Below are positions 8,212-60,818 of a stretch of DNA of 64,000 bases, one piece after another. Each line of letters begins with the position of its first letter. Positions within the stretch are counted from its first letter, which is position 1. The notes beneath the pieces were generated by a model. The model was given only the letters and a program-made list of their open reading frames with translations. It had not been told where the DNA came from and searched no databases. The stretch is from assembly GCA_012813795.1 (NCBI GenBank), contig GCA_012813795.1_4087.1; one strand, 5' to 3'. This stretch comes from a phage. The position numbers and the translations under genes were made by a program.

Positions 8212-8212
8212 A

Positions 8213-8527: not shown

Positions 8528-8898
8528 TTAAATTTCTCTCTAGCTGCAAGTGAATTTTGTTTTAGATCATTCAAAAGTTTTACCCCTTCTTCATCTAAAC
8601 ATACATTTCTATAAACTTCACGCTCAATAATAACTGGTACTTTAGTTTCTATTACCTTTGCATTATTTTGCATTATATGTTTAGTTTCTACATAGTTTTT
8701 GGTATTTTGGCTTTCAATTTTACTTAAAGCCGCATCTACTTTCTTCTCTATTTTTAATTCAATACTTTCTTTATACCCAGTATAAAAAGTATTAGCCTTC
8801 CAGCCACCAAAAGTACATGATGCCATCAGGAGAACAAACGCAATTGGTTTCCAGAACGGTATCAGTACTTTTGAAACAATAATATCTAGTACACTCAT
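8524..8898 (-). CDS. i-spanin-like protein
   Basis: 124 aa; N-terminal TM anchor followed by a charged helical region; paired with the downstream lipoprotein. Confidence 0.55.
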   Translation of the reverse strand: MSVLDIIVSKVLIPFWKPIAFVLLMASCTFGGWKANTFYTGYKESIELKIEKKVDAALSKIESQNTKNYVETKHIMQNNAKVIETKVPVIIEREVYRNVCLDEEGVKLLNDLKQNSLAAREKFK

Positions 8899-39743: not shown

Positions 39744-39770
39744 TAGACTGAAATTACTTTACAAAAAAAA

Positions 39771-39792
39771 TGTGGTTGAATATTCAACCACA
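39771..39792. repeat. perfect 22-bp palindrome
   Basis: TGTGGTTGAATATTCAACCACA preceded by A8, 20 nt upstream of the RBS of 39814. Confidence 0.7.
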
Positions 39793-39813
39793 TAATAAGA
39801 AGGAAACATAATT

Positions 39814-41439
39814 ATGATAGAAGATTCAAAAAATCTTATTTCAGTTAGTTTAAACAAAAGAACTATTAGAACTTCTGTTCGTGATGTTAACACATTATAT
39901 GTTAGTTTTAATCCACCTGACTATATTAATCAGGTTGGAACATGGACATATGATGAACAGTATATTGAAATGATCACACAAGATAATTTGGTTTTTGTTT
40001 TTAAATCTATAAAAAGTGGTGTAACCACCATAACATACACACCACGTGATAATAAAGCATTATCGAAGAATTGTATAGTTAATATTGAAAAAATACCATT
40101 ATCATCAATTAGTCTTAACCCAAATTATATAACTTTATACAAAGGTCAAACTTTTGATATTGATATATCATATATCCCAGATGGAGCAGTTCATTCGGGT
40201 AATTGGAGTAATTTAAACAATGATATATTGTATATAGGTCAACAAAGTACACCTGATAAATCAAGAATGCAAGTACTAACAACTGATGCTAAGATGATAA
40301 CTTTATATTATACCAGTGGCGAAATATCAGTTCCTTTGAATTGTACTATATTGAACAACCCAGCAGATGAAATTATTTTCGATCCACCATCACCAATTAA
40401 TGTAACAGTTGGTGAGAGTTTTTTTGTAAACATAAACTATGCACCAGAAAATGCGGATAAGGTTGGATTCTGGGAATATGATGATTCAGTACTGATGTTA
40501 TTGAATGATAGTGATAAGGCATCCAGTGCACATTTTGTGGCTACCAAAAAAACCACATCAACTGGAACTGAACTTAAATTCCGTTCAGGTGATGTGTACT
40601 CAACGTTACAGTGCTTTATAACTCCTGGTGTTTTAGATTTATTAACATTAACACCTAGTTATGAAACGGTGGTTGTTGGTGACGCGTTTGACATTGGAAT
40701 AACCTATTACCCAGAAGACATAATTCACAAAGGTATATGGGAATATGATTCTACATATTTCAAAAAAATGTTCGATGACTCAAATACTGCAACATTTAGA
40801 TTAATCAAAAAATCCGACATACCATTAAAATTAAGATATATCTCTTATGGGAGAGCATTTAATAATATATGCACTACTGTTGAAAATGGTGATTTAGTTT
40901 CATTACAATTAAACCCTAATTCCGAATCAGTTGAGGTTGGTAAAAGTTTTGATATCGCAATAACATATAAACCTGATAATGCTTTACATAGTGGTATATG
41001 GGATTTCGATTCGGAATATATTAAATTGGAAAAATCAAGTACAGTGGATAAAGCAACATTTACAGTACTGAAATATAATCCAAATCCATTAACATTAACT
41101 TATAAATCAGGTAAAACAACTGCAACAAACAAATGTATTACTGTAAAAAATACACCAGTATTAAGTAGTATTAAAGTATCCCCAGAATCAACTGAAATGA
41201 AAGTTGGTGATACAGTATTATTATCAATTTCATACAACCCTAATACAGTAGAGCATATGGGAATGTGGTATTATGATAAAAAACTATTCAAATTAATAGA
41301 CACAGGTCAAACACATGACTATGGTATATTTGAATGCTTGGCGGTGTCAGACGCAAAATCACCAATAGTATTTTCAAGTGCTGGAAATGCTGATGCTTGT
41401 ATTGTCACAACTAAAGAAAAAACAACTAAAGAGGATTAA
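39814..41439 (+). CDS. large Ig-like repeat protein 3
   Basis: 541 aa; about 6 repeat units; AAGGAAA RBS. Confidence 0.75.
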   Translation: MIEDSKNLISVSLNKRTIRTSVRDVNTLYVSFNPPDYINQVGTWTYDEQYIEMITQDNLVFVFKSIKSGVTTITYTPRDNKALSKNCIVNIEKIPLSSISLNPNYITLYKGQTFDIDISYIPDGAVHSGNWSNLNNDILYIGQQSTPDKSRMQVLTTDAKMITLYYTSGEISVPLNCTILNNPADEIIFDPPSPINVTVGESFFVNINYAPENADKVGFWEYDDSVLMLLNDSDKASSAHFVATKKTTSTGTELKFRSGDVYSTLQCFITPGVLDLLTLTPSYETVVVGDAFDIGITYYPEDIIHKGIWEYDSTYFKKMFDDSNTATFRLIKKSDIPLKLRYISYGRAFNNICTTVENGDLVSLQLNPNSESVEVGKSFDIAITYKPDNALHSGIWDFDSEYIKLEKSSTVDKATFTVLKYNPNPLTLTYKSGKTTATNKCITVKNTPVLSSIKVSPESTEMKVGDTVLLSISYNPNTVEHMGMWYYDKKLFKLIDTGQTHDYGIFECLAVSDAKSPIVFSSAGNADACIVTTKEKTTKED

Positions 41440-46664: not shown

Positions 46665-47360
46665 TTATACCCACTCTTCCACGCCACCGCGACGTTTAAC
46701 TAGGTATTGACCTTTTTCATTACGTGGACCAAGGATAATACCATCGATAAATCCAAGTTCACCATACTCAAGTGCTTCATCTGCACTCAACCACAAATCG
46801 CGGTCCGCATCTTCTAGTAGTTTTTCATGAGAAACACCTACAGCTTCAGCGATTTCTTTCGTCAGCAATGTGTTCAATGCATCAGAGTGTTTTAGTGCAA
46901 TTTTCTGATCAGTGATCAGACCTTGTGTACCAGAACTTACTTGGTGACACATAAAGTACGAGCGTTTACCACCAAGACGATAACCTTTAGTACCAACTAC
47001 TGATTGTGTGTAGCAACCCATTGATGCTGCATAACCCATCACTACTGTGCGGATTGGTGATACACAAGATTTAGCAATATCAGAAATACCCAAACCTGCA
47101 TGAACACTACCACCCGGCGAGGAAATATAAAGAGTAATTGGTTCAGAACCTTGAGAATCCAACCACACCAATTGTTGCTTGATGATATGTGCCATTTGGT
47201 CGTTGAAATCAGTATCAAGGAAAATGATACGGTCTTGCATCATACGAGATGCTAGATCATAAGTACGTTCGTTGCCATTAACTTTTTCAACTACATATGG
47301 AATTGAAATGTTAGTTGTTTCACCATTCGCATAACCACCAAACATAAATTGTTGAGTCAT
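46665..47360 (-). CDS. clpP: ATP-dependent Clp protease proteolytic subunit ClpP
   Basis: 231 aa; collinear with ClpP: RIIFL, ITLYISSPGGSV, catalytic-Ser context AASMG, His context FMCHQ. Confidence 0.85.
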   Translation of the reverse strand: MTQQFMFGGYANGETTNISIPYVVEKVNGNERTYDLASRMMQDRIIFLDTDFNDQMAHIIKQQLVWLDSQGSEPITLYISSPGGSVHAGLGISDIAKSCVSPIRTVVMGYAASMGCYTQSVVGTKGYRLGGKRSYFMCHQVSSGTQGLITDQKIALKHSDALNTLLTKEIAEAVGVSHEKLLEDADRDLWLSADEALEYGELGFIDGIILGPRNEKGQYLVKRRGGVEEWV

Positions 47361-48208: not shown

Positions 48209-49000
48209 TTAGATTTCGAATACCAATTTAGGATTGTAATCGAAATTCTCACAAGCTCCACTATAAGATTCGTAACCTCTTGGATTACAAATGATACGTG
48301 TCTTACCGATGTGGTAATCAAAGCTACTATGAACATGACCATGAATCCAAACATCAGCACCCAAATCTTCAATGTACTGATCCATGTCTGAACAGTAACA
48401 ACCATTCAGTGAATCGTTTTTATATTTTGGTGAAACACTTTGAAAACTCGGTGCGTGATGGGTAATCACGATGACCTTGAAATCATTATCCTGCATTAAG
48501 CGTACTGTGTCAACTGAATTTTTGATAAATTGTTTATCTTTGTAATGCATGAACTCAGTATCTTCTGGTGTCAGTTTCTTACGCCAAGGCTCGGATGTTG
48601 TTCCATGACGGATGTGTTTGTAATCGTTCATCTTCTGACGAGCATCAAACTTCGTCATGGAATTACCTTTGTCAAAGTCTGTCCACAGAGTACTACCAAC
48701 GAGCAAAACACCATCCAGCCATACAAATTTGTTTTGCAAAAAGATGAAATTAGGAAACTCATCTTGCATATCGGACAGTACTTGATGCGTTTTGTAAATG
48801 TTCGAACCGTAGTACTCGTGATTACCAGGAACCAGTACTACATTCTTGAACTGCTTACACAGTGATTCGATACCAGTACGATAACGACTACGTTTAACTT
48901 CATCGAAGTCCCCAGCAATGATCAGTACTGTGTCACTGTAATCACCACTATGGAGGTAATCAGTGCCACCGTGTACATCAGATGTTACGACAAATTTCAT
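48209..49000 (-). CDS. calcineurin-like metallophosphoesterase
   Basis: Motifs SDVHG, GDF, GNHE, HGHVH; start set to the ATG (MKFVVTSDVHG) with GGAGG RBS. Confidence 0.8.
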   Translation of the reverse strand: MKFVVTSDVHGGTDYLHSGDYSDTVLIIAGDFDEVKRSRYRTGIESLCKQFKNVVLVPGNHEYYGSNIYKTHQVLSDMQDEFPNFIFLQNKFVWLDGVLLVGSTLWTDFDKGNSMTKFDARQKMNDYKHIRHGTTSEPWRKKLTPEDTEFMHYKDKQFIKNSVDTVRLMQDNDFKVIVITHHAPSFQSVSPKYKNDSLNGCYCSDMDQYIEDLGADVWIHGHVHSSFDYHIGKTRIICNPRGYESYSGACENFDYNPKLVFEI

Positions 49001-49019
49001 AATTACCTCCAATAAATGT

Positions 49020-50438
49020 TTAGCCAAGTGATTCAATAATACTGTTTGAGAAGACCTCAACTGCACTATCACGAATTTCTAAGATACGAGTATAATCGTC
49101 ACAAGTGTTTTTGTCAAATCTAAATTCAATAAACACTGGTAAAAATAGTGATGGCTCACCAGTACGCTTGTCGAATACAATGTCATTACACTCAACTGTA
49201 ACCACTTTACCAATAAGTTCTTGCATTCTTTCCCAAATGGTTTTAAATGTCCATTCAGCATCTTTTTCGCGGATTCCTGTTCCTACGCTTACTTTTAGTG
49301 TACCACAAGCACTTTCCAGTTGTAAAGAACCAAGCATACCTTTACGCTTACCTTCACCTTCATTGAAACCAACAATACGCAAGTCCAGTTGCATTTTCAA
49401 TTTCATTTTCAACTGCTTAGGAGAAGTATGTGATTTCCAGATACCATCTTCACATTTCAGTACTGAACCTTCTTCACCTGAACTCATGAGTTCAGAGTTG
49501 TAAGCAAAGGCTTCTTTGAGATCCTTCACCTTACGATATCCAACCATACGCACGAATTCACTACCTAATGCATTGATTGCACCTTCAAGAATCTCGCGAC
49601 GTTCCTTACGTTTTACATCCCAGATACCATCACAATATGCATCGTATGGCACTACATCCCAGAGAACGAATACTGTACGCATTGCTTCGTTTTGGGTGAT
49701 AGTATCTTTACCTGCTTTCTGAATGATGCCGTTACCAGTTGTACGTGGAAGAATAGTTTCCCCATCAGTATCCAGTACTAAACCCTCGCCCATAAAGACT
49801 ACACCACTACTGAAACGTTCATCTGTACTTTGGATATGATGAGCAAGGCCAGCCATTTCAGCATCACGACAACCGAGGAAGTCGTAAATCTTACCATTAC
49901 GGGAAGTGGATGTTAATGATGCATTGATAACAACGTGGTTCAAGTACTGACCATCCATCTTAACTTCAGCAACGGCATAACCATAATCTTTGAAGTTGAT
50001 GTTCTTAGCAGTTTTCTTGTCAATCAATGAACAACGCATATAAGGTTCATCTTTAATGAAGCCTTTACCGAATACATCATTACAGTTCTTTTCCTGAATA
50101 CCACAATCAAGGTTCTTCGTGAGCATTTTACGGAGAACTTCCTGGTCATCTTCAGGAACAGCACCCAGTACTGAAGCAATGAAATCACGCCCTGTATTAC
50201 CCGTCACACCACGCTTATAGATGCATTCTAGCTTATCAATAGCTTCATCTAACGTCATATGTTGATACACGTCAGCAGCGTCTGGTAGCTTCTTATAGCC
50301 ACTTACGATAGTAGGGTCTAGCGTATATTTCAGTACTTTTTTGAGTGTTTCATTGTTTTTGTTTTCTTCAAGGATTGCTTTCTTACCAAGTGTACTTGAA
50401 GTCTTTTTGATTTGTTCCAGAATTGCTAAAATGCTCAT
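49020..50438 (-). CDS. 30: ATP-dependent DNA ligase
   Basis: 472 aa; adenylation motif I KxDG in AEVKMDGQY; size comparable to T4 gp30. Confidence 0.85.
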   Translation of the reverse strand: MSILAILEQIKKTSSTLGKKAILEENKNNETLKKVLKYTLDPTIVSGYKKLPDAADVYQHMTLDEAIDKLECIYKRGVTGNTGRDFIASVLGAVPEDDQEVLRKMLTKNLDCGIQEKNCNDVFGKGFIKDEPYMRCSLIDKKTAKNINFKDYGYAVAEVKMDGQYLNHVVINASLTSTSRNGKIYDFLGCRDAEMAGLAHHIQSTDERFSSGVVFMGEGLVLDTDGETILPRTTGNGIIQKAGKDTITQNEAMRTVFVLWDVVPYDAYCDGIWDVKRKERREILEGAINALGSEFVRMVGYRKVKDLKEAFAYNSELMSSGEEGSVLKCEDGIWKSHTSPKQLKMKLKMQLDLRIVGFNEGEGKRKGMLGSLQLESACGTLKVSVGTGIREKDAEWTFKTIWERMQELIGKVVTVECNDIVFDKRTGEPSLFLPVFIEFRFDKNTCDDYTRILEIRDSAVEVFSNSIIESLG

Positions 50439-50447
50439 TATATTCCC

Positions 50448-51647
50448 TTATAGATAATAGGTTCCATAAAAAATAGGACAGTCAGTGCTAATATGAACCA
50501 TAGGTTTTTTATTAGATTCTGATGTATTATTACTGTATCGTTTGGTTGGTGGATAGAAAGGTGAATTATAACCACGCCATGTATTGAAAGATGTATGTTT
50601 ATCGATATCAACATCCATTGACATTACACCATTCGCATCAACTTCTACTGGGTATCCGCAGTATTTTTCAAAATCACCCTTGTACGCTATAGAATAATCA
50701 TGGCGATAATATCCATAGGAATTTCTGCTGTTGTTATCTGAAATACCAAAGAATACACGATATTTTTGACCATTCTGTTCAGTCATGAATAATACGTTTT
50801 CATTGAAACGACCATTAACAAGAACGTCTTTAGTGATTTCAGTGTATTTTACTTTCATATCAGTACTTTTAAATGATTTAGTACTGATCAGTACTGGTCT
50901 ATTGCATTCACCTAATGCGTTCTCAGTTCGCATTCGGTACGTATTGAAATACGCATTTGCTTTAACAATTTCAGCTTCCATTGTTGTTTTAACGTTATGG
51001 AGTGCTCTGGGTGTTAATTCGTATCGGTCAAGGCTTGCACATACACCATATGTACCATCAGCGATACAATACACCATATGATAGAAAGAACTTTTGTTAG
51101 GTAAAGAGAATTCTTTAGTTTTCTTCAAACAAAGAGTATGAACGCGACCACAATAGTAGTACTCTTTTTTGTTATAAAGGAATCCATCACCAACTTTCAA
51201 CTCACCAACAACGCATTTACGTTCTTCAGCTTTCTCTTGCTTCTCTTGCATCTTAGCAAATGTTTTTGTATTACCATTAATGAGTTCAAGATTATTATTA
51301 AAGAACATAGCATCTTGGAATACACCATTAACGATATCATTGTGTGTGATTAAGTCCAGCATATTGTTTGCAGTGATATTGAACTCAAATCCTTCTGGGT
51401 GACGGCAAACGAAATAAGTATCTCGACCACTGTGAATCAATTTCTGAACAATAGCGAAACCTTTTTTCGGTTCATTGTCGAGTGTAAGTGACGGCATATT
51501 ATTGGTTCTTGCCCAGTACTCAACACGTTCTTTCTTATTTTCAAATGCTTTAGTGTGAGTTTTAGTTGCGTCGATAATAAATCCGTCAACCTGATCTCCA
51601 CTAACAAAACGTCTTGCGACGAAAATCTTTTCAGGAAAATTCATCAA
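50448..51647 (-). CDS. hypothetical protein
   Basis: 399-aa track ORF. Confidence 0.55.
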   Translation of the reverse strand: MMNFPEKIFVARRFVSGDQVDGFIIDATKTHTKAFENKKERVEYWARTNNMPSLTLDNEPKKGFAIVQKLIHSGRDTYFVCRHPEGFEFNITANNMLDLITHNDIVNGVFQDAMFFNNNLELINGNTKTFAKMQEKQEKAEERKCVVGELKVGDGFLYNKKEYYYCGRVHTLCLKKTKEFSLPNKSSFYHMVYCIADGTYGVCASLDRYELTPRALHNVKTTMEAEIVKANAYFNTYRMRTENALGECNRPVLISTKSFKSTDMKVKYTEITKDVLVNGRFNENVLFMTEQNGQKYRVFFGISDNNSRNSYGYYRHDYSIAYKGDFEKYCGYPVEVDANGVMSMDVDIDKHTSFNTWRGYNSPFYPPTKRYSNNTSESNKKPMVHISTDCPIFYGTYYL

Positions 51648-52063
51648 ATAGTCCTCATTGTACTCATAGCTTTTAGTGTTTCGTACATATGACCGTATTT
51701 GGAAAATAGCTGTAAATCAGACATTGGGTCGTTAGTACGCATCAGTGCCATGTCATCAATCATTTCTTCAGTGCATAGTACTGCTACACTAGTGAGGGTA
51801 TCGTTCAAACCTGGTTCATTGAATTTAGCAAATGGAACCTTGCCCTGTTTGGATAGATTCTCGTAATGAGTGGTTAATTTATCTTGGTTGCCAGCATTGA
51901 GAATTACAATAGTTTCGTGCTCATTATACCATTCATCGATTAGAGTACTGAATACTGTACCTTCATATTCTTTGACGAGTTTAATACCAGCATGAAATGC
52001 CTGAACGCCAGCCTGAACACCCTGACAGTACATGTTTGTTAAGCAATATAGTTTCACTTCCAT
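51644..52063 (-). CDS. hypothetical protein
   Basis: 139-aa track ORF. Confidence 0.5.
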   Translation of the reverse strand: MEVKLYCLTNMYCQGVQAGVQAFHAGIKLVKEYEGTVFSTLIDEWYNEHETIVILNAGNQDKLTTHYENLSKQGKVPFAKFNEPGLNDTLTSVAVLCTEEMIDDMALMRTNDPMSDLQLFSKYGHMYETLKAMSTMRTI

Positions 52064-52281
52064 ACCTCTTGTTTTTCTACATATCCTTTACCATCACAAT
52101 CTGGACATGCATAATAGCGACGAAATTCTTCATCGGGAACTTGTTGTGATCCGTTACATTTAGGACAAATGCGACGAACACCAGAAATAATACGTTCATG
52201 ATGCTCAGCTTGTTTAGCTGAATCAAAAATGCGACCATCTTCAGTTTGATATTTTTCAACCTGAACATAAATTACTTTCAT
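52054..52281 (-). CDS. small Zn-ribbon protein
   Basis: 75 aa; CPKC...CPDC pairs. Confidence 0.5.
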   Translation of the reverse strand: MKVIYVQVEKYQTEDGRIFDSAKQAEHHERIISGVRRICPKCNGSQQVPDEEFRRYYACPDCDGKGYVEKQEVWK

Positions 52282-52290
52282 TTTATATCC

Positions 52291-52569
52291 TTATAAAAAA
52301 GTTAAATCTTCAGTACTTAATTGTACAAAACATTTGTTAGTTTCATTGTCAACCAGAATTTCAACATACACCTTCACTTCATGAATTGTTACAATTCTAT
52401 GAATCACACCAACAGTAGTTCCATCTATATATGGTAGCTCAACCCAACGACCAACCAATTTATCACTTAAATGGTCTTTCATTTGTTGGTTGGTATCATT
52501 GATTATTGTATCGAGTGATTTTTTAAAAAAGTTAAATTCGGTTAATGAACTATCAATCATGTCATGCAT
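52291..52569 (-). CDS. small protein, K-[YL]-[IV]-G-[KR]-x-V family
   Basis: 92 aa; contains DKLVGRWVEL; member of the small-paralog family described in findings. Confidence 0.5.
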   Translation of the reverse strand: MHDMIDSSLTEFNFFKKSLDTIINDTNQQMKDHLSDKLVGRWVELPYIDGTTVGVIHRIVTIHEVKVYVEILVDNETNKCFVQLSTEDLTFL

Positions 52570-52574
52570 AATAA

Positions 52575-53318
52575 TTACCTCTTGAATCGACTAAATGAAT
52601 ATTCGTCTTTTTCTTTACGCAAATAACACATCTTACCACCTTGAGGGGTAGCAATAGTCAAATCACCAGTAAGAAACTGACTGTCAATCCAGATACGGTT
52701 ACCATAAATGAGGGGATCAAACACGGCAGTATGCCCACTAAGTACATAATCTACGTTGGTAATACGTGATGCATTAAAGACGTTGTTGGCTTTACAGAAA
52801 TCAAATGTCTTTCTGTCCCATAGGCATGACTCAATTGTATCACTGGACATTGATTTTGTCCCAGTAATGAACTTATTCCAGTCAGTGTGCTTAAGGTCTA
52901 CACTTGCATGTACGAGGCCAATCTTGAGTCCTCTGTGATTGATTTGGATAATCATAGGTAGCTGGTTCAAGTACTGACGGAAGAATTCCACTCCTGATAC
53001 ACCAACTTCTTCCAGGAACTTATCGCCCCCATTCTGTGTCCAGCAATGATACCAGTCACGATGAGTTGCAGAATCAACACACATCGATTCATGATTGCCC
53101 ATGATCATATATCGATTCTCAGCGAATAAAAACTCAAACAAAAGGTGAGCACTTTGCTCACCTCTGTCAATTAAATCGCCTAAACTGAATACATAATCTT
53201 CAGGAGTAATACCAAATTCTTTCTTGGTATGTTCCCATAGTTTTGCATTACCGTGAATGTCTCCTACTATATACAAATCTTTTTCATCAGGAACTGTTAC
53301 TTCTAAGAAATGTTTCAT
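52575..53318 (-). CDS. PPP-family Ser/Thr protein phosphatase (lambda-PPase/ApaH-like)
   Basis: 247 aa; motifs GDIHG, GDLIDRG, GNHE in canonical order; ATG verified. Confidence 0.8.
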   Translation of the reverse strand: MKHFLEVTVPDEKDLYIVGDIHGNAKLWEHTKKEFGITPEDYVFSLGDLIDRGEQSAHLLFEFLFAENRYMIMGNHESMCVDSATHRDWYHCWTQNGGDKFLEEVGVSGVEFFRQYLNQLPMIIQINHRGLKIGLVHASVDLKHTDWNKFITGTKSMSSDTIESCLWDRKTFDFCKANNVFNASRITNVDYVLSGHTAVFDPLIYGNRIWIDSQFLTGDLTIATPQGGKMCYLRKEKDEYSFSRFKR

Positions 53319-53569
53319 TGTTCTTTAATCCATATAATTCTATCATAGGTGACAACTTGAGTATTGGCAATTTGGTCATTGACATAGCAATCTACGTAAT
53401 ATCGCACATCACCATGATATGTTCCCATATCTCTTATGCATATTTTTTGCCAACCTCTGGAGTGTTTAAGAAGAATTTCTTGACCAATATATTTGTGCTT
53501 AGCACGTTGGACAAAATCATCATATAACGATTGTAACATCTTTAACTGTTCAATTTCAGTCTTTGTCAT
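53315..53569 (-). CDS. small protein, K-[YL]-[IV]-G-[KR]-x-V family
   Basis: 84 aa; contains HKYIGQEILL. Confidence 0.5.
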   Translation of the reverse strand: MTKTEIEQLKMLQSLYDDFVQRAKHKYIGQEILLKHSRGWQKICIRDMGTYHGDVRYYVDCYVNDQIANTQVVTYDRIIWIKEQ

Positions 53570-53792
53570 GTTTCTTCTTCTTGAATTTTGTTAGTGTATT
53601 GTAAAAATCTTTACAGATTGAAATGAAAAGATACACCAACGACACAGGCCACAGTACTGATAACATAGAGCAGGTACTAATATTAATCATTGTGGTATGG
53701 GTATCTTTAAAAGAACCCCAGTTGATGATAAGAAAAGTACTCAAAAATGTACTCAGTACTCCTACACCATACAAAGCAAAAAATAAAATCAT
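53556..53792 (-). CDS. small membrane protein
   Basis: 78 aa, two TM segments. Confidence 0.45.
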   Translation of the reverse strand: MILFFALYGVGVLSTFLSTFLIINWGSFKDTHTTMINISTCSMLSVLWPVSLVYLFISICKDFYNTLTKFKKKKHDKD

Positions 53793-54137
53793 TTATTCCT
53801 CTTCTATTAGTTCTAAACGATCTAAACGGTAAGTGAATCCGTACCATTCAGAACTTTTTGGATTTTCATATTCCACATCAACATAGATTGATGAATTCTT
53901 TACTCGCAACAAAGTAATAAACATAACTGTATTTTCGTTGATATGAGAAGCTTCATCATCACAATAAATCCAGTCAGAATCTACTTCATCCTCCTTAGCC
54001 TTATTGATGTGGTCAATATACTCTTGAGTGAATTTTACTTTTTTGCCTATTAATTTATTTTTTAAGGTACTAACGAATTCTGATTGAAGATCAAGGAGAG
54101 ATTCGAAGTACCTTAGTTCAGATGATAACGGAACCAT
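53793..54137 (-). CDS. small protein, K-[YL]-[IV]-G-[KR]-x-V family
   Basis: 114 aa; contains NKLIGKKVKF. Confidence 0.5.
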   Translation of the reverse strand: MVPLSSELRYFESLLDLQSEFVSTLKNKLIGKKVKFTQEYIDHINKAKEDEVDSDWIYCDDEASHINENTVMFITLLRVKNSSIYVDVEYENPKSSEWYGFTYRLDRLELIEEE

Positions 54138-54745
54138 TAATCACAGCTTCCTGAACTTGAGCTTGAACTATCACAAGAGCCACTATCATAAGAGGAAGAT
54201 GAGTCGCTATAGGATGAAGTACTGATAATTGCGGCAGTTGTTGCTGCTGTCAGTAGAACAGTGCTTGTACCATCATCAGTACTGGTAGTACTGGAAGATG
54301 CTTCCTTATCAGTTTTAGTGCTTTTGCGAGTTGTACTGGTTTTTTTGGTATTTTTAGTGCTAGTCTTGCGACCTTTTGTTTTCTTAGAAGTTTTTGCTTT
54401 TGTTTTAGTTGTTGGTGCTTTTGGTTGTGGTTCTTCTTTTACTGGAACTTCTTCCTGAACTGATTTAACTTCTTCAGCAGCACCATCAATGTAAACGTCA
54501 TCAACTGTTAAAGTTGGCGTATATCCTTCAAAAACTGGTACATCATGTACTGCTTTATCACGATTATCGTCAATGACTAGTGACATGTCACGGCGACCCA
54601 TAATAATGAGTAAACCTAGTTCTAGTACTGGCGTAAAAATAATACCAAATACTGTGTATACCAGTGCATTACGGTTGTAAGATTTTGCCAAAAACCAACC
54701 AATAACCAGACCAAGTACGTATAGTACGTATAGTGCATAAATCAT
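54137..54745 (-). CDS. membrane-anchored protein with K/T/S-rich low-complexity tail
   Basis: 202 aa; N-terminal TM segments, then a basic low-complexity stretch (TKTKAKTSKKTKGRKTSTKNTKK) and S/C-rich C-terminus. Confidence 0.5.
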   Translation of the reverse strand: MIYALYVLYVLGLVIGWFLAKSYNRNALVYTVFGIIFTPVLELGLLIIMGRRDMSLVIDDNRDKAVHDVPVFEGYTPTLTVDDVYIDGAAEEVKSVQEEVPVKEEPQPKAPTTKTKAKTSKKTKGRKTSTKNTKKTSTTRKSTKTDKEASSSTTSTDDGTSTVLLTAATTAAIISTSSYSDSSSSYDSGSCDSSSSSSGSCD

Positions 54746-55041
54746 AGTATGACTCCTTTAATTACAATTATTTTACCGATATCTTCGATATAATTAGAAA
54801 AGTGATAGTTGTCTTGGTATATCAACCACGCACCAAACCCATCTACTATTTCGATTATATTAATTTCTTCAATTGGATTATTTTTACATTCAGCAACGAA
54901 CGGACAAAAATAATCATTTAAAATTTGAAGATATATTTTACTTACCTCTAACCATTCAGTTCTATTATAGTATTTGTCAAAAATAAAAGTTTCCCACAGA
55001 AGTTTATATGTTTCTTCTGCTTCATATAATGTTTTAATCAT
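54742..55041 (-). CDS. hypothetical protein
   Basis: 99-aa track ORF. Confidence 0.45.
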   Translation of the reverse strand: MIKTLYEAEETYKLLWETFIFDKYYNRTEWLEVSKIYLQILNDYFCPFVAECKNNPIEEINIIEIVDGFGAWLIYQDNYHFSNYIEDIGKIIVIKGVIL

Positions 55042-55340
55042 ATACTAATAATTTCGTTAGTGGATACTACTCTTCCGTACATCAATGGGATTACGTACAC
55101 ATTTGGAATCGAAATCCCCACTGATTTAATTGTATCACATAGCTCATTATTTGTCCTGGCATTTTTGAACTTTATTTCTCTACCTTCAAATGCATCAATA
55201 ACAGATTGTGAATATGAATCCATTAACACCCTGAAGTTAATCATCATAGTTGGGTAGTCTAGTATCCCCTCAATTCGCATATCATGGCACGTTCTGAATA
55301 GCATAATGTATGTTTTATGACAAAGTAATAGTTCATTCAT
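55038..55340 (-). CDS. hypothetical protein
   Basis: 100-aa track ORF. Confidence 0.45.
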   Translation of the reverse strand: MNELLLCHKTYIMLFRTCHDMRIEGILDYPTMMINFRVLMDSYSQSVIDAFEGREIKFKNARTNNELCDTIKSVGISIPNVYVIPLMYGRVVSTNEIISI

Positions 55341-55654
55341 ATGAAAATCTCATCCAGATACAATGTAGTACTGGGTCTGTCTGTATTAACATCAGTACTG
55401 CAATCAATCATCAGACCGTAGTCAGTACCCCATATTTGCTTGATATAAATGTCATAATCACGACTGGTATTTGCTTCATATACTACATTATTATAAAAAA
55501 GATCAGTCAATTCGTAATAGAAATCTTTAACAAGTTTATTCACCTCTTTTCTGTACATATCCATCTCAACGTTATCAATGTACAATAACCATTTCAGACA
55601 ATAATTAAAATGATTCTCGTACATTATTAATTTATTATATTCTTCTTGTGTCAT
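55337..55654 (-). CDS. hypothetical small protein (paralog of 55651..55974)
   Basis: 105 aa; IWGTDYGLMIDC...YLDEIFI parallels HGVFGTSHGIFVDY...YIEEIEL in the neighbour. Confidence 0.5.
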   Translation of the reverse strand: MTQEEYNKLIMYENHFNYCLKWLLYIDNVEMDMYRKEVNKLVKDFYYELTDLFYNNVVYEANTSRDYDIYIKQIWGTDYGLMIDCSTDVNTDRPSTTLYLDEIFI

Positions 55655-55974
55655 AGTTCAATCTCTTCTATGTACATACTATTTTCTGTGTACGGATCAA
55701 ATGGGTGTATTTTATAATCAACAAAGATTCCATGTGATGTACCAAAAACACCATGAATATATACAATTTCATCTTCGCACTTAATAGTTCTGTACTTAAA
55801 TCTCTTTTCCAATGATTCATATATTTCACTAATTATACAGTTAATATAGTTCTTAAACTGACGGTTTGATTTAGTGCATTGTTCTTCAAGAAGTATATTA
55901 TATATAATCAGAAAGTGTCTGTTTATATAATTCAAATAATCTAATTCACTTTTTGTTATTAAAGTGTTGCTCAT
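55651..55974 (-). CDS. hypothetical small protein (paralog of 55337..55654)
   Basis: 107-aa track ORF. Confidence 0.5.
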   Translation of the reverse strand: MSNTLITKSELDYLNYINRHFLIIYNILLEEQCTKSNRQFKNYINCIISEIYESLEKRFKYRTIKCEDEIVYIHGVFGTSHGIFVDYKIHPFDPYTENSMYIEEIEL

Positions 55975-56275
55975 ATATAATCTCTATCTCGTTTGAATCG
56001 TAATATGCTTTATGGGTTCTTGTTTTATTTTGGTATTTTATTTTGGTTTTGATAAAATATATAACCTTTTTCCATTCATAATACACGTACTCAATTTTAC
56101 CATAGTCACCAGTACTAAGTAATACTTTTTTACCTTTGTACAGTTCTTGTAATTGTGTTTTATAATCCTCAAGAAATCTACTTTCAAAAATTTTTACATC
56201 ACTTTCCATCACAAGGTCGATAAGAATAGCAAGATGCCTATCCAATAATAGTAAGTTCTCTTGATCGTATTGCAT
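55946..56275 (-). CDS. small protein, K-[YL]-[IV]-G-[KR]-x-V family (start uncertain)
   Basis: Track ORF 55946..56362 contains LYKGKKVLL; start trimmed to an internal ATG to limit overlap; no clear RBS. Confidence 0.4.
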   Translation of the reverse strand: MQYDQENLLLLDRHLAILIDLVMESDVKIFESRFLEDYKTQLQELYKGKKVLLSTGDYGKIEYVYYEWKKVIYFIKTKIKYQNKTRTHKAYYDSNEIEIIYEQHFNNKK

Positions 56276-56552
56276 AATATCTTTGTCCATTATCAGATTT
56301 TGCCGTATACATGTATGCCCCATAAGAATATGATATGTTGGTAATTTCAACTTCTCTTCCAAGATATATAGCTTTTGTTCCTACGTATTTTTTAAGCAGT
56401 GGTGTAGTTAGTTCAAGGAGATAGGTTTCAAGGAAATCGGAAATATCATAAGATGGATAATAATCATCCATTTGGGTATGAAAGAAACGACGTGTATCTC
56501 TTATTAATTTCACGTGCCTGTCATACAATTCTAATTTCGTCATATGTTGCAT
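56238..56552 (-). CDS. small protein, K-[YL]-[IV]-G-[KR]-x-V family (start uncertain)
   Basis: Track ORF 56238..56615 begins with TTG; contains KKYVGTKAIYL; start set to an internal ATG. Confidence 0.4.
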   Translation of the reverse strand: MQHMTKLELYDRHVKLIRDTRRFFHTQMDDYYPSYDISDFLETYLLELTTPLLKKYVGTKAIYLGREVEITNISYSYGAYMYTAKSDNGQRYYAIRSRELTIIG

Positions 56553-56802
56553 CCCATAAAAAACCTGCTCGTTCGCACCTGTACAAAATATTACCATTCC
56601 ATGTCGCCACTTCAATAATTGTCCAAGTTAAATCAGTATCATCTAGAACATTGACACCAAAAACCGATTTAGACAATTCGTTCTCGTAATTATCCATCAG
56701 TACTGATAATGATGTTAGTAATCTTTCATCGGATTCTGAAAAATATAAACTACGTAAAATACGATAATGATAATAAAAAAACTTCAATGAATCATTATTC
56801 AT
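56521..56802 (-). CDS. hypothetical small protein
   Basis: 93-aa track ORF. Confidence 0.45.
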   Translation of the reverse strand: MNNDSLKFFYYHYRILRSLYFSESDERLLTSLSVLMDNYENELSKSVFGVNVLDDTDLTWTIIEVATWNGNILYRCERAGFLWDATYDEIRIV

Positions 56803-57104
56803 GAAAAAATAAACCTCGAATATATTCTTGAGCGAAATGTTATATCACTTGGGATATATTTGCAACAAAGGTATGGATATCCGTAAGTACTGGATTCGAT
56901 TTCGGTAATAATAACATCACTACCTCGATATTTGCACTGAACATTTGAGTATTTTTTATTCAAAAAGTCAAGATATTCATCATGGAAATAAATGAGTTGT
57001 TCTTCAAACTTGTATTGTTTTTCATTATACATTGCAAGAGATTCTTCTTTAAGAAGATATAATGTTTTCATTAATGCTTGGAATTCATTCGTATTCATAT
57101 CCAT
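56799..57104 (-). CDS. hypothetical small protein
   Basis: 101-aa track ORF. Confidence 0.45.
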   Translation of the reverse strand: MDMNTNEFQALMKTLYLLKEESLAMYNEKQYKFEEQLIYFHDEYLDFLNKKYSNVQCKYRGSDVIITEIESSTYGYPYLCCKYIPSDITFRSRIYSRFIFS

Positions 57105-57666: not shown

Positions 57667-58599
57667 TCAAAATAGTCCAGGTTCCACCTGAAATACTTTC
57701 AAGCCTAGTAGCTTACGCCACATGAATACAACTTGTGATCTATCATCAAATACTTTCTTAACATCGTAATGATTAACAACGTTATTCATATACAACTCGA
57801 ATTTGACAACATCATCAGGACGTTTATCATCGATAGCTCGCATTAACAATACATCGTAGGGAATGCCCCAATTCTTAAGCCACTGTTCAGTATCAGCACG
57901 ACACCCTTCAGTACGCCCACTCATGACGATTACCTTACGCTTATGGAAAACAGCCTCAGCAATGACAGACAGAATTACTTCTTCATCTGGTGTATCCTGA
58001 AGGACAGTACTTTCATCAAACGGGTTACGTCCCCACTTATGAGCAAGAGTACCGTCGATATCAACAATGATAGCAGCTTCACGTGCATTACCATAGTAAC
58101 CAATGTGCATCGCCTTACTATAATAGTACGTATTTGCCATAGTGTCAATGATTTCATCTTGTACTGAACGCTCACGCTGGAGGTTATATTTCTTACAAAG
58201 TTTTACGAACTCTTTAATCTTAAAGAATTCATGAACATCTGCACCACGGTCTTCATTAGGTACAAAATCATCATAGAAGTTCTTTTCTTTGTAATCATAA
58301 CCATTATCTTTAGCCCACATTTTCCATTGATCACGGAAATGTGGTTTAAGGTTCGTATCGGATACGATGATATTCCAACTATTCTCCGCTGCTGAATTTG
58401 CTGCACTGAACTGTAAATTAGTTACGTACTTCTCATTAGCATCGTTGAATTTGTAAGCATCATGTGACCCAGCCATAGATTCACGAATATCATCACGGTT
58501 GATGTTGATAGTCTTGGATTTGGCTTTTTTAATCTCTTGCACTGCCCATGTAGTTTTACCACACCCTGGCAATCCAACTGTTAGTGTAATAGTTGGCAT
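57667..58599 (-). CDS. pseT: polynucleotide 5'-kinase/3'-phosphatase
   Basis: 310 aa; N-terminal P-loop GLPGCGKTT and C-terminal HAD-type phosphatase motif IVDIDGTLA, the T4 Pnk architecture; ATG verified. Confidence 0.85.
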   Translation of the reverse strand: MPTITLTVGLPGCGKTTWAVQEIKKAKSKTININRDDIRESMAGSHDAYKFNDANEKYVTNLQFSAANSAAENSWNIIVSDTNLKPHFRDQWKMWAKDNGYDYKEKNFYDDFVPNEDRGADVHEFFKIKEFVKLCKKYNLQRERSVQDEIIDTMANTYYYSKAMHIGYYGNAREAAIIVDIDGTLAHKWGRNPFDESTVLQDTPDEEVILSVIAEAVFHKRKVIVMSGRTEGCRADTEQWLKNWGIPYDVLLMRAIDDKRPDDVVKFELYMNNVVNHYDVKKVFDDRSQVVFMWRKLLGLKVFQVEPGLF

Positions 58600-59672: not shown

Positions 59673-60818
59673 CTAAAAATCCTTTAGTACATCTTTGTAG
59701 TACTTTAGTAAAGTCTCTTTATAATCGACACTTTTGCCATTGTACAACGCAAAGGCCAAGCCTTGTCGGTTCAATACATTAGGTAAATCTTGCTGAACCT
59801 TTTGAGCGAATTCCTTTCGCTCTAAGTGCTTGTATGCATGGACGAAGCTTTCTACCTCATCTTGTAAAGCATTATAGCACGAAAATACCAATTGTTCCAT
59901 TCTTAATATCTTATCCATAGCATATGTATCAGTACTGAACAATTGTTTTAAGTCATCACTTGCACCAGTCAGTACAGCTTCATATAAATGGGAATCAATA
60001 AGAATGGAATCTTTTGTTAAATGCAAAGAGCAATACCAGTCAGTTTTGATTTTGCACATTGTACCATCTTTCATTATACACACAAAACCTTCAATGTCAA
60101 GCATAGAACGTACTTTATCGATTGACTCTTTAAATGTAGGCATAATCGGGAATGTATGATGAATGTCATTACCTGTCATATTAGTACTGTACTGTGAAAG
60201 GCATGGAAACTTATCACGTAGTGCTTTACCGCATAACAACTCACCACTAATACGATGACGAACGTTAAGAACAAATAACTGTTCCACCTGATATGGTAAC
60301 ACAATTCGATACTCTGGGCTTGTGTATTCCAGATTCACAGTATAGCCCAAACGGTCTGCTTCATCAATGTATTGATAGAGATTTTGGTTCTCGTTCAAAA
60401 GTCGAGTACTGTTAATAGCATGGTCAGAAGATAACGAAGTGTGTGATTTACAACGGATTTCACCATCGTTATCACGGAATGTGCTGATGATAGAACCATC
60501 TAGCTTAGGCATTACAACCGCAATATCATCACAGGTAGTATCAGTACTGAACATTGTGTACGGGTTTTCATATGCATTGAAGAACTTTTTCATTGTACGT
60601 GCTGCACAACGAATCATAATTCCGTTGGAATCGATTTCCCACATAGAACCACGAGTTTCTAGTGCATTTTTATTTGTGAAATCGGTATAAGATGCCAGAC
60701 GATAGGTGAATACACGGTATAAACCACCACCAGGGCTTGTATGATCTATATAGAAAAATGCATCATTAGATTCACATAGTTCCATTAAATCATTGTATAT
60801 TTCTCGCAAATTACTCAT
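59673..60818 (-). CDS. rnlA: RNA ligase 1 (T4 Rnl1-like)
   Basis: 381 aa; nucleotidyltransferase motif I KxDG in VMPKLDGSIIS about 100 aa from the N-terminus; size matches T4 Rnl1; ATG verified. Confidence 0.8.
   Translation of the reverse strand: MSNLREIYNDLMELCESNDAFFYIDHTSPGGGLYRVFTYRLASYTDFTNKNALETRGSMWEIDSNGIMIRCAARTMKKFFNAYENPYTMFSTDTTCDDIAVVMPKLDGSIISTFRDNDGEIRCKSHTSLSSDHAINSTRLLNENQNLYQYIDEADRLGYTVNLEYTSPEYRIVLPYQVEQLFVLNVRHRISGELLCGKALRDKFPCLSQYSTNMTGNDIHHTFPIMPTFKESIDKVRSMLDIEGFVCIMKDGTMCKIKTDWYCSLHLTKDSILIDSHLYEAVLTGASDDLKQLFSTDTYAMDKILRMEQLVFSCYNALQDEVESFVHAYKHLERKEFAQKVQQDLPNVLNRQGLAFALYNGKSVDYKETLLKYYKDVLKDF

What the first reader, a model, noticed from the sequence alone, without database searches (positions are those of the whole stretch)
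48209..53318. Two distinct phosphoesterases flanking DNA ligase
A calcineurin-like metallophosphoesterase (48209-49000) and a PPP-family Ser/Thr phosphatase with GDIHG/GDLIDRG/GNHE (52575-53318) both occur here. A phage protein phosphatase may reverse host kinase signalling, including kinase-based defence.
Basis: partly seen in the sequence, partly recalled or inferred. Interest (0 to 1): 0.35.

Follow-up and report, generated by a model that had tools for sequence, protein, structure and literature searches.

The report
Two ordinary phage phosphoesterases near DNA ligase
A giant E. coli phage carries two intact but only distantly related metal-dependent phosphoesterase genes near its DNA ligase gene; both are real, but they are already annotated in near-identical published phages and their biological roles remain untested.

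Summary
On the minus strand, 48209-49000 encodes a 263-aa calcineurin-type metallophosphoesterase (MPE). 52575-53318 encodes a 247-aa lambda-phosphatase/NinI-like PPP enzyme. Every metal-ligand motif is intact in both.

The window is an Asteriusvirus (Rak2/121Q-like) jumbo phage, 98.7% identical to Escherichia phage A4. GenBank already annotates these genes there as "metallophosphoesterase" and "putative serine/threonine protein phosphatase".

"Flanking" is loose. The MPE starts 19 nt after the T4-type DNA ligase. The PPP gene lies 2.1 kb upstream, with four genes in between. The whole block is conserved in Cronobacter phage GAP32.

The PPP family occurs in more than 1,300 phage records in unrelated contexts.

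The MPE belongs to a very large family of stand-alone proteins, seen here mostly in phage and giant-virus sequences (about 9,800 clusters at E<=1e-30). Its nearest solved fold is M. tuberculosis PptH, and only moderately. It lies near ligase genes more often than a uniform-placement model predicts, but also near ClpP, dCMP deaminase and MazG.

I found no evidence for the counter-kinase-defence idea. Nucleic-acid end healing or nucleotide metabolism are equally plausible. Overall this is ordinary and already known, so interest is low.

The parts
48209..49000 (-). Stand-alone binuclear metallophosphoesterase (MPE, 263 aa), family phrog_1649. Motifs: D8-x-H10, G30-D31, G59-N60-H61-E62, H181-H182, G221-H222-x-H224.
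   Evidence: Pfam and PHROG hits. Motif residues are invariant or nearly so (at least 90%) across 59 homologues. AlphaFold2 model has pLDDT 95.8. Foldseek top PDB match is PptH 6UNC at TM 0.61-0.66. 99.2% identical to A4_452 'metallophosphoesterase'. Shine-Dalgarno sequence GGAGG upstream of the ATG.
49020..50438 (-). T4-type ATP-dependent DNA ligase (472 aa)
   Evidence: Pfam DNA_ligase_A_M at 9.6e-13 and phrog_114 at 4e-117. PDB 6DT1 DNA ligase (T4 DNA ligase by my recollection; the tool row says only 'DNA ligase') at E=4.7e-43. Annotated as A4_451.
50448..51647 (-). Conserved 399-aa protein of unknown function (phrog_14061), between the PTH2-like gene and the ligase
   Evidence: phrog_14061 at 1e-147; no Pfam, NCBIfam or PADLOC hit. 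No PDB sequence hit. AlphaFold2 pLDDT 81.7. No significant PDB fold match: best E=0.03, TM<=0.12.
51644..52063 (-). 139-aa 'hydrolase' with weak, sub-threshold similarity to peptidyl-tRNA hydrolase PTH2
   Evidence: Pfam PTH2 at E=2e-4 (21.9 bits; cutoff 23). phrog_3668 at 2e-41. NCBIfam Pth2 at 7e-4.
52054..52281 (-). 75-aa CxxCxGxG-type zinc-finger protein (DnaJ central-domain / anti-TRAP-like)
   Evidence: Pfam Anti-TRAP at 1.7e-6 and DnaJ_CXXCXGXG at 4.5e-5, both below the gathering score. phrog_12574 at 1e-34.
52291..52569 (-). 92-aa protein of unknown function
   Evidence: phrog_38615 at 2e-17; no Pfam hit.
52575..53318 (-). PPP-family (lambda phosphatase / NinI-like) binuclear metallophosphatase, 247 aa. 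Ligands D20, H22, D48, N75, H137, H196; catalytic H76; phosphate-binding R52 and R169.
   Evidence: phrog_246 at 1.4e-64. PDB 1G5B at 6e-16, full length. NCBIfam PrpA/PrpB-type models at 4e-18 and 8e-16, far below the equivalog cutoffs. Alignment with lambda NinI, the GAP32 homologue and ApaH. 97.6% identical to A4_446. Its start codon overlaps the upstream stop codon as ATGA.
46665..47360 (-). ClpP-family protease (context; the most frequent neighbour of the MPE family)
   Evidence: Pfam CLP_protease at 7.7e-42. Present in 25 of 80 MPE loci.
57667..58599 (-). T4-type polynucleotide kinase / 3'-phosphatase (context)
   Evidence: ORF. Corresponds to A4_432, annotated '3'-phosphatase, 5'-polynucleotide kinase'.
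59673..60818 (-). RNA ligase (context)
   Evidence: ORF. Corresponds to A4_427, annotated 'RNA ligase'.

Best explanation
The locus holds two independently acquired, catalytically competent binuclear metallophosphoesterases. Both sit in one long co-directional block of non-structural genes of an Asteriusvirus jumbo phage. The block also carries an RNA ligase, a T4-type Pnkp, a DNA ligase, ClpP and dCMP deaminase. I infer that the block is expressed early or in the middle of infection; I did not test this.

(1) The 247-aa protein is a lambda-phosphatase/NinI-type PPP enzyme. Shown: it has the full PPP active site. Inferred: it is a Mn2+-type, broad-specificity phosphomonoesterase. Like its lambda and P1 relatives, it is probably a dispensable accessory factor that dephosphorylates host or phage phosphoproteins. 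A secondary 2',3'-cyclic phosphodiesterase activity is possible.

(2) The 263-aa protein belongs to a very large family of stand-alone viral MPEs (phrog_1649). Shown: it has all five MPE motifs, a confident MPE fold, and probably shares a transcript with the ligase gene 19 nt upstream. Inferred: it is a phosphodiesterase. Its nearest solved folds, PptH, MPPED2 and Dbr1, are diesterases. It probably acts in phage nucleic-acid or nucleotide metabolism, for example by cleaning blocked ends for the ligase or by processing nucleotide breakdown products.

Nothing indicates that the two enzymes work together.
For: Identity and active sites.

Genome identity and existing annotation: 98.7% nucleotide identity to Escherichia phage A4, with both genes annotated there.

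Conserved block: the order PPP - x - PTH2-like - 399-aa - ligase - x - MPE - x - ClpP ... dCMP deaminase is retained in Cronobacter phage GAP32, where protein identity is only 43-52%.

PPP family:
- Found in 1,317 phage records, in unrelated contexts: lambdoid nin regions, T5-like phages and others.
- ninI and P1 ppp are non-essential (PMC10695390).

MPE structure:
- AlphaFold2 pLDDT 95.8.
- Best PDB matches are PptH at TM 0.61-0.66, MPPED2 at about 0.53 and Dbr1 at about 0.55.
- Much closer matches (TM 0.75-0.86) are uncharacterised MPEs of phages and giant eukaryotic viruses.
- PptH hydrolyses bis-pNPP but not pNPP (PMC8557913).

MPE synteny across 80 viral loci:
- ClpP in 25, ATP-dependent DNA ligase in 23, dCMP deaminase in 17, MazG in 10.
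- A NAD-dependent ligase lies 3.4 kb away in another jumbo-phage contig.
- An RNA ligase lies 0.2 kb away in Caulobacter phage Cr30, and gp30 ligase 2.2 kb away in KVP40.
- On contigs of at least 100 kb, 9 of 17 loci have a ligase within 8 kb, against 1.56 expected under uniform placement.

A bacterial MPE-ligase repair cluster is a precedent (PMC7826289).
Against: No substrate is known for either family in any phage.

The ligase linkage is loose. Distance, order and intervening genes all vary, and about 60% of loci with full flanks have no ligase. It is confounded by shared ancestry: the nine positive long contigs represent about three lineages. ClpP and dCMP deaminase co-occur as often as the ligase, so the signal may only reflect a conserved non-structural gene module.

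The MPE resembles PptH only moderately. Identity is 18-22%, and the sequence profile matches only the N-terminal 68 residues.

The PPP gene's neighbourhood of Pnkp, Rnl and ligase fits a nucleic-acid role as well as a protein-phosphatase role.

The promoter scan was no better than chance, so expression timing and operon structure are inferred from gene arrangement only.
Confidence: 0.55

Rival explanations
1. The PPP enzyme is a counter-defence or host-takeover protein phosphatase that reverses Ser/Thr/Tyr/His phosphorylation by host kinases, including kinase-based defence systems or stress signalling.
For: The full PPP active site is conserved. Its closest cellular models are the E. coli protein phosphatases PrpA/PrpB (NCBIfam PRK11439 and PRK09968). 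The family is widely and patchily distributed across unrelated phages, as expected for an accessory host-interaction gene. Phosphorylation-based phage-host conflict exists, for example the T7 kinase paper PMC13645617 (listed).
Against: Full-text literature searches found no documented target or defence system. There is no PADLOC hit. Lambda ninI and P1 ppp are dispensable with no known phenotype. I found no link to a kinase, though neither the window nor the rest of the phage genome was searched for a kinase gene.
Confidence: 0.15
2. Both enzymes are polynucleotide end-healing enzymes. They would remove 3'-phosphate or 2',3'-cyclic phosphate, or other blocking groups. This would feed the neighbouring DNA ligase, RNA ligase and Pnkp, and so repair damage from host nucleases such as anticodon nucleases.
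For: Lambda phosphatase has 2',3'-cyclic phosphodiesterase activity, and the CthPnkp healing domain is lambda-phosphatase-like (PMC2190708). The PPP protein hits the phosphatase region of a phage 'RNA ligase' fusion family, phrog_8238, at 1.5e-7. Pnkp, Rnl and DNA ligase lie on the same strand within about 8 kb of the two genes. The MPE is linked to three different ligase families. A bacterial MPE-ligase repair cluster exists (PMC7826289).
Against: The phage already has a T4-type Pnkp, which supplies 3'-phosphatase activity. Most PPP homologues sit in lambdoid phages, in nin-region contexts unrelated to this block (I did not check those loci for ligases). The MPE shows no specific similarity to the P. 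putida MPE clade: it is absent from the profile search and from the top 50 fold matches. It is also not SbcD/Mre11-like, with TM only 0.45-0.50. The ligase linkage is loose.
Confidence: 0.2
3. The MPE is a small-molecule or cofactor phosphodiesterase aimed at the host. It might degrade nucleotide immune signals or cyclic nucleotides (Icc/MPPED2-like). Alternatively, it might strip 4'-phosphopantetheine from holo-ACP (PptH-like). The PPP enzyme would be unrelated.
For: The top solved folds are PptH and MPPED2. JGI annotators call relatives 'Icc-related phosphoesterase'. The N-terminal half matches the PADLOC defence-candidate model PDC-S10 at 2e-12. The family is huge and appears largely virus-associated, like other anti-signalling enzymes.
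Against: No ACP-like gene recurs near the MPE in the 80 loci or in the window. TM to PptH is only 0.61-0.66. The literature search found no calcineurin-type MPE among known anti-signalling enzymes. Frequent neighbours are nucleic-acid and nucleotide metabolism genes, not counter-defence genes.
Confidence: 0.1
4. The MPE is a host-genome-degrading nuclease, like mycobacteriophage A10ZJ24 Gp48. It would shut off host gene expression and supply nucleotides.
For: A phage MPE with this role has been demonstrated (PMC12287305). The neighbours dCMP deaminase and MazG suit nucleotide recycling.
Against: hhalign of the family profile against the cluster A homologue Bxb1 gp47 gives 0.8% probability, so this is a different subfamily. 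There is no capping domain or DNA-binding domain.
Confidence: 0.1

Closest known systems
Bacteriophage lambda Ser/Thr phosphatase (NinI, lambda-PP; PDB 1G5B)
   Same: Full-length homology (E=6e-16; residues 4-228 against 4-219). Same size class. GDxHG, GDxxDRG and GNHE motifs, both downstream His ligands and both phosphate-binding Arg residues are conserved.
   Different: Only 26-27% identity. It has a C-terminal extension of about 20 aa, and the region around residues 140-165 differs. The genomic context is a jumbo-phage non-structural gene block, not the nin region.
E. coli PrpA/PrpB protein phosphatases, and ApaH
   Same: The PrpA/PrpB-type NCBIfam models match over the whole length (4e-18 and 8e-16). 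ApaH matches the N-terminal catalytic half at 2.5e-8.
   Different: Scores of 66, 58 and 34 bits fall far below the equivalog cutoffs of 326, 332 and 176. The ApaH-specific insertion of about 50 aa is absent.
Clostridium thermocellum Pnkp 2',3'-phosphatase domain (RNA end healing)
   Same: It is a lambda-phosphatase-like binuclear centre (PMC2190708). The PPP protein matches the phosphatase region of the phage fusion family phrog_8238 'RNA ligase' at 1.5e-7. Ligase and kinase genes are nearby here.
   Different: Here the phosphatase stands alone and is not fused to kinase or ligase modules. The phage has a separate T4-type, DxDxT-family Pnkp. Activity on RNA ends is untested.
M. tuberculosis phosphopantetheinyl hydrolase PptH (PDB 6UNC)
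   Same: It is the best solved-structure match for the MPE (Foldseek E about 4e-10, TM 0.61-0.66). It is also the best sequence-profile hit (E=2.6e-8). Both share GNHE-type motif III.
   Different: Identity is 18-22%. The profile match covers only the first 68 or so residues. No carrier-protein gene recurs nearby. PptH is described as unique to mycobacteria (PMC8557913).
[quoted passage not shown]
   Same: It is a stand-alone small MPE genetically linked to an ATP-dependent DNA ligase, which is a functional analogy (PMC7826289).
   Different: There is no specific sequence or fold similarity. It is absent at E<=0.1 from the profile search and from the top 50 Foldseek matches. No Lhr helicase or Exo partner is present here.
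Mycobacteriophage cluster A MPE (A10ZJ24 Gp48; Bxb1 gp47)
   Same: It is a phage-encoded stand-alone MPE of about 255 aa with five motifs, expressed early, with a demonstrated counter-defence phenotype (PMC12287305).
   Different: It is a different subfamily: hhalign probability is 0.8%.

Membership tests
PPP-family / lambda-phosphatase-like metallophosphatase (for 52575-53318) | Signature motifs GDxHG, GDxxDRG and GNHE | tested here: met
   GDIHG at 19-23, GDLIDRG at 47-53, GNHE at 74-77. These columns are invariant in the alignment with lambda NinI, the GAP32 homologue and ApaH.
PPP-family / lambda-phosphatase-like metallophosphatase (for 52575-53318) | Downstream metal-ligand histidines and phosphate-binding arginines (lambda H139, H186, R53, R162) | tested here: met
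   H137, H196, R52 and R169 align with the lambda residues.
PPP-family / lambda-phosphatase-like metallophosphatase (for 52575-53318) | Full-length homology to a solved PPP catalytic domain | tested here: met
   1G5B at E=6e-16 over residues 4-228. PP1 catalytic subunits at about 2e-5 over the N-terminal motifs.
PPP-family / lambda-phosphatase-like metallophosphatase (for 52575-53318) | Mn2+-dependent phosphoprotein phosphatase activity | not testable with these tools
   Needs pNPP and phosphopeptide assays.
ApaH (symmetrical Ap4A hydrolase) | Equivalog-level score and the ApaH-specific insertion/cap region | tested here: not met
   33.6 bits against a cutoff of 176, covering the N-terminal half only. 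The insertion is absent in alignment A2.
Calcineurin-like binuclear metallophosphoesterase superfamily (for 48209-49000) | Five motifs: DxH, GD, GNH[E/D], H, GHxH | tested here: met
   D8/H10, G30-D31, G59-N60-H61-E62, H181(H182) and G221-H222-x-H224 are invariant or nearly so (at least 90%) in 59 homologues.
Calcineurin-like binuclear metallophosphoesterase superfamily (for 48209-49000) | MPE beta-sandwich fold | tested here: met
   AlphaFold2 pLDDT 95.8 and pTM 0.93. 53 PDB matches have E<=1e-3, and all 50 listed are MPE-superfamily proteins.
PptH-type phosphopantetheinyl hydrolase | Close structural and sequence similarity to PptH, and association with carrier proteins | tested here: inconclusive
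   It is the top fold hit, but TM is only 0.61-0.66 at 18-22% identity. The profile hit is limited to residues 5-72. No ACP-like gene recurs nearby.
SbcD/Mre11 nuclease | Capping domain and an adjacent SbcC/Rad50 ATPase partner | tested here: not met
   The protein is 263 aa with no extra domain. TM is 0.45-0.50. The flanking genes are the ligase and two small unknowns.
Mycobacteriophage cluster A MPE (Bxb1 gp47 / A10ZJ24 Gp48) | Profile-level homology | tested here: not met
   hhalign probability 0.8%, E=0.069.

The most novel reading that the evidence does not exclude
The phrog_1649 MPE is a virus-specific phosphodiesterase. It is shared by T4-like and jumbo phages and by giant eukaryotic viruses. 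It would partner with whichever polynucleotide ligase the virus carries (ATP-dependent DNA ligase, NAD-dependent DNA ligase or RNA ligase). Its job would be to heal blocked ends made by host nucleases. That would make it an undescribed, widely conserved viral repair and counter-defence step.
Probability: 0.12. Interest if true: 0.55.

Novelty: already known. Interest (0 to 1): 0.17.

Why it matters
As it stands, it matters little. Both genes are routine annotations in Rak2/121Q-like jumbo phages.

The useful residue is that neither family has a known biological substrate in any phage. The MPE family is enormous (about 9,800 clusters at 50% identity with E<=1e-30) and spans phages and giant viruses. 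One biochemical characterisation would therefore annotate thousands of viral genes.

If the MPE proved to be a ligase-coupled end-healing enzyme, or the PPP enzyme a counter-defence phosphatase, that would add a new element to phage-host conflict. Nothing here makes either more than a hypothesis.

Tried and rejected
- **Bacterial genome scan.** The genome-contig scan for cellular relatives of the MPE failed because the alignment had no stretch conserved enough. Cellular contexts were therefore not examined.
- **Domain fusions.** I searched the 1.84-billion-protein library for MPE fusions. All 150 top hits are stand-alone proteins of 248-295 aa, so there is no fusion clue.
- **PptH idea.** Neither a KVP40 PP-binding-like neighbour nor E. 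coli AcpP has a relative in the 80 MPE loci or in the window.
- **Neighbour annotation.** Pfam annotation of recurrent neighbour families gave only a ferredoxin/DUF3470 protein, WYL_2 and radical SAM. None is informative about substrate.
- **The 399-aa protein between the two genes.** It has only 10 homologues, a moderate model (pLDDT 81.7) and no PDB fold match. It sheds no light on the phosphoesterases.
- **Possible tandem paralogues.** The roughly 100-aa ORFs around the PPP gene show only weak pairwise BLAST hits (best 5.6e-4), and an HMM iteration recruited nothing.
- **Promoters and terminators.** Promoter counts were no better than in shuffled sequence (80 against 85.8). Two terminator-like sites on the minus strand, at 57659-57636 and 43685-43664, lie just outside the ends of the block and may bound it; others fall inside coding sequence.
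- **Literature.** Searches for a phage PPP or MPE role in defence, or for work on Asteriusvirus phosphatases, found nothing specific.

Full report
**What the window is.** An 8-kb stretch around the finding is 98.7% identical over its full length to Escherichia phage A4 (ON286972.1). A4 is a 355-kb Asteriusvirus jumbo phage. More distant matches (78-88%) are to 121Q and other Rak2-like phages. In A4 the two genes are already annotated: A4_452 is 'metallophosphoesterase' and A4_446 is 'putative serine/threonine protein phosphatase'. The window proteins are 99.2% and 97.6% identical to them.

**Check of the observation.** All genes in the region run on the minus strand.

The ORF at 48209-49000 encodes 263 aa.
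- It matches Pfam Metallophos (9.2e-13) and phrog_1649 (9e-72).
- A GGAGG Shine-Dalgarno sequence lies 7 nt upstream of the ATG at 49000, which is 19 nt after the ligase stop codon. Homologues are also about 263 aa.

The ORF at 52575-53318 encodes 247 aa.
- It matches Metallophos (2.2e-14), phrog_246 'NinI-like serine-threonine phosphatase' (1.4e-64) and lambda phosphatase 1G5B over its full length (6e-16).
- I aligned it with lambda NinI, the GAP32 homologue and E. coli ApaH. D20/H22 (GDIHG), D48/R52 (GDLIDRG), N75/H76 (GNHE), H137 and H196 (GHT) are invariant across all four. R169 (WDR) is invariant among the three phage proteins.
- The ApaH-specific insertion is missing. ApaH and PrpA/PrpB equivalog scores are far below their cutoffs. 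The protein is therefore a lambda-PP-type PPP enzyme, not an orthologue of any named E. coli enzyme.

The two proteins are distinct. BLASTP finds nothing significant. Profile-profile comparison gives only 50% probability, through the shared superfamily motifs.

'Flanking' is loose. The MPE abuts the ligase. The PPP gene lies 2.1 kb upstream, and four genes separate it from the ligase:
- a 92-aa unknown;
- a DnaJ-CR-like zinc finger;
- a weak PTH2-like hydrolase;
- a 399-aa unknown.

**Context.** The block is part of a long run of co-directional non-structural genes. In transcription order it reads:
1. RNA ligase (59673-60818)
2. T4-type Pnkp (57667-58599)
3. about a dozen small ORFs
4. the PPP gene
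5. the four genes listed above
6. DNA ligase, which matches PDB 6DT1 at 4.7e-43 (I recall this entry as T4 DNA ligase)
7. the MPE
8. two small unknowns
9. ClpP
10. dCMP deaminase

Terminator-like hairpins on the minus strand, at 57659-57636 and 43685-43664, lie just outside the block and may bound it. The promoter scan was uninformative. The same order (PPP, x, hydrolase, 399-aa homologue, ligase, x, MPE, x, ClpP ... dCMP deaminase) is kept in Cronobacter phage GAP32. Protein identity there is only 43-52%, so the arrangement is old within Rak2-like phages.

**The PPP enzyme.** tblastn finds homologues in 1,317 phage records. They include lambdoid phages (NinI), T5-like phages and several groups of large Klebsiella, Escherichia and Vibrio phages. 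A pattern scan of IMG/VR returned mostly prophage-sized contigs of 35-55 kb about 27% identical to the query. I read these as lambdoid, partly because lambda NinI was in the query alignment; in lambda the gene lies in the nin region between ninH and Q. The family thus moves between unrelated contexts, which is typical of an accessory gene.

Lambda ninI and P1 ppp are non-essential (PMC10695390). Lambda phosphatase also has phosphodiesterase and 2',3'-cyclic phosphodiesterase activity, and it is the archetype of the CthPnkp RNA end-healing domain (PMC2190708). The PPP protein also matches the phosphatase region of a phage 'RNA ligase' fusion family (phrog_8238, 1.5e-7).

Sequence therefore cannot separate a protein-phosphatase role from an end-healing role. 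Literature searches found no paper tying a phage PPP enzyme to any defence system, and PADLOC has no match.

**The MPE.**
- In 59 homologues spanning 35-85% identity, the five MPE motifs are invariant or nearly so. So are family-specific residues T104, W106, D126, P184, S188, Y229, G242 and Y243.
- The AlphaFold2 model is confident (pLDDT 95.8).
- Against the PDB, the best match is M. tuberculosis PptH (6UNC; TM 0.61-0.66; 18-22% identity). Next come MPPED2, aq_1956/TT1561, SbcD/Mre11, Dbr1, GpdQ and Rv0805, at TM 0.45-0.55. The sequence-profile search also ranks 6UNC first, but only over the N-terminal 68 or so residues.
- Against predicted viral structures the matches are much better (TM 0.75-0.86). 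They include MPEs of giant eukaryotic viruses such as Terrestrivirus, Pandoravirus, Pithovirus, Marseillevirus and Clandestinovirus.
- An exhaustive profile search finds 25,606 cluster representatives at E<=1e-3 and 9,776 at E<=1e-30. The top 150 are all stand-alone proteins of 248-295 aa.
- The family is not related to the characterised mycobacteriophage MPE. hhalign gives 0.8% probability against Bxb1 gp47, which belongs to the same cluster A family as A10ZJ24 Gp48.
- It shows no specific similarity to the P. putida ssDNA endonuclease MPE.
- The N-terminal half hits the PADLOC candidate model PDC-S10 at 2e-12. This shows only that related MPEs occur in bacterial defence-island candidates.

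**Is the ligase linkage meaningful?** I clustered all ORFs in 80 IMG/VR loci carrying the MPE, each with 8 kb of flank.

| Co-directional neighbour | Loci (of 80) |
|---|---|
| ClpP | 25 |
| ATP-dependent DNA ligase | 23 |
| ferredoxin/DUF3470 protein | 20 |
| WYL_2 protein | 20 |
| dCMP deaminase | 17 |
| IF-1-like (named from its sequence, not scanned) | 14 |
| Hsp20-like (named from its sequence, not scanned) | 12 |
| MazG | 10 |
| RNase H | 10 |

Other ligase types also occur near the MPE:
- a NAD-dependent LigA 3.4 kb away in L089/L090, and in L019;
- an RNA ligase 0.2-0.3 kb away in Cr30 and in L016;
- gp30 ligase 2.2 kb away in KVP40.

On contigs of at least 100 kb, 9 of 17 loci have a ligase within the flanks. 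Uniform placement of one ligase per genome predicts 1.56 (Poisson tail 3.7e-5).

This overstates the case. The nine loci represent about three lineages. Distance and order vary from -5.6 to +7.7 kb. About 60% of loci with full flanks have no ligase. dCMP deaminase or MazG is the immediate neighbour in several lineages.

My reading is that the MPE is a stable member of a nucleic-acid and nucleotide-metabolism module of large myoviruses. Its linkage to ligase is suggestive but not compelling. A test of the PptH idea was negative: no ACP-like gene recurs near the MPE.

**Most likely mechanism.**
- *Shown:* both active sites are intact, both folds are assigned, and the gene order is conserved.
- *Inferred:* the PPP enzyme is a broad-specificity Mn2+ phosphomonoesterase with an accessory role. 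The MPE is a phosphodiesterase acting on a nucleic-acid end or a nucleotide-derived substrate, co-expressed with the ligase.
- No evidence suggests that the two cooperate.

Rivals are ranked in the structured fields: counter-kinase defence, joint end-healing, host-directed small-molecule or ACP diesterase, and host-DNA nuclease.

**Verdict.** The family assignments are correct. The functional speculation is unsupported but not refuted. Both genes are already annotated in public genomes and belong to very common phage families. This is an ordinary finding of low interest. The only open point is that neither family has a known physiological substrate.

Noticed in passing
window 50448-51647 (-): A conserved 399-aa protein (phrog_14061) lies directly upstream of the DNA ligase, with a 9-nt gap. 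It has no Pfam, NCBIfam, PADLOC or PDB sequence hit. Its AlphaFold2 model (pLDDT 81.7) has no significant PDB fold match: best E=0.03 and TM<=0.12, with only faint hits to OB-like/beta-barrel nucleic-acid-binding domains. Only 10 homologues were found. It may be a new fold.
   Followed up: partly
window 51644-52063 (-): A 139-aa 'hydrolase' (phrog_3668) shows sub-threshold similarity to peptidyl-tRNA hydrolase PTH2 (Pfam 2e-4, NCBIfam 7e-4). It is conserved in GAP32 in the same position. A phage PTH2-like enzyme near Pnkp and RNA ligase might relate to tRNA or translation rescue.
   Followed up: no
window 57667-58599 and 59673-60818 (-): A T4-type polynucleotide kinase/3'-phosphatase and an RNA ligase lie 1 kb apart. 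In T4, this classic pair repairs tRNA and counters anticodon nucleases.
   Followed up: no
window 52291-57104 (-): A run of about a dozen 75-140-aa ORFs of unknown function surrounds the PPP gene, many with overlapping stop and start codons. A few pairs show weak similarity (55337-55654 against 55651-55974 at E=5.6e-4; 53315-53569 against 55038-55340 at E=0.007). An HMM iteration recruited no more members, so a tandem paralogue family is not established.
   Followed up: partly
window 46665-47360 (-); A4 record 95219-96829 (about window 38685-40295): The ClpP-family protease is the most frequent neighbour of the MPE family (25 of 80 viral loci). The A4 annotation shows two further ClpP/crotonase-like or protease genes, plus Sir2-like and PhoH-like genes, a few kb away in the same window.
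   Followed up: no
window 54137-54745 (-): A 202-aa protein has an N-terminal hydrophobic segment and a very low-complexity Ser/Thr/Lys-rich C-terminal half (…KTKAKTSKKTKGRKTSTKNTKKTSTTRKSTK…SSSSSSGSCD).
   Followed up: no
L172 (Mycobacterium phage Bxb1, NC_002656) 7876-8788: The RefSeq record labels gp46 as the recombination directionality factor and gp47 as metallo-phosphoesterase. From my recollection of the literature, gp47 (the MPE-like protein) is the Bxb1 RDF. The annotation may be shifted by one gene.
   Followed up: no
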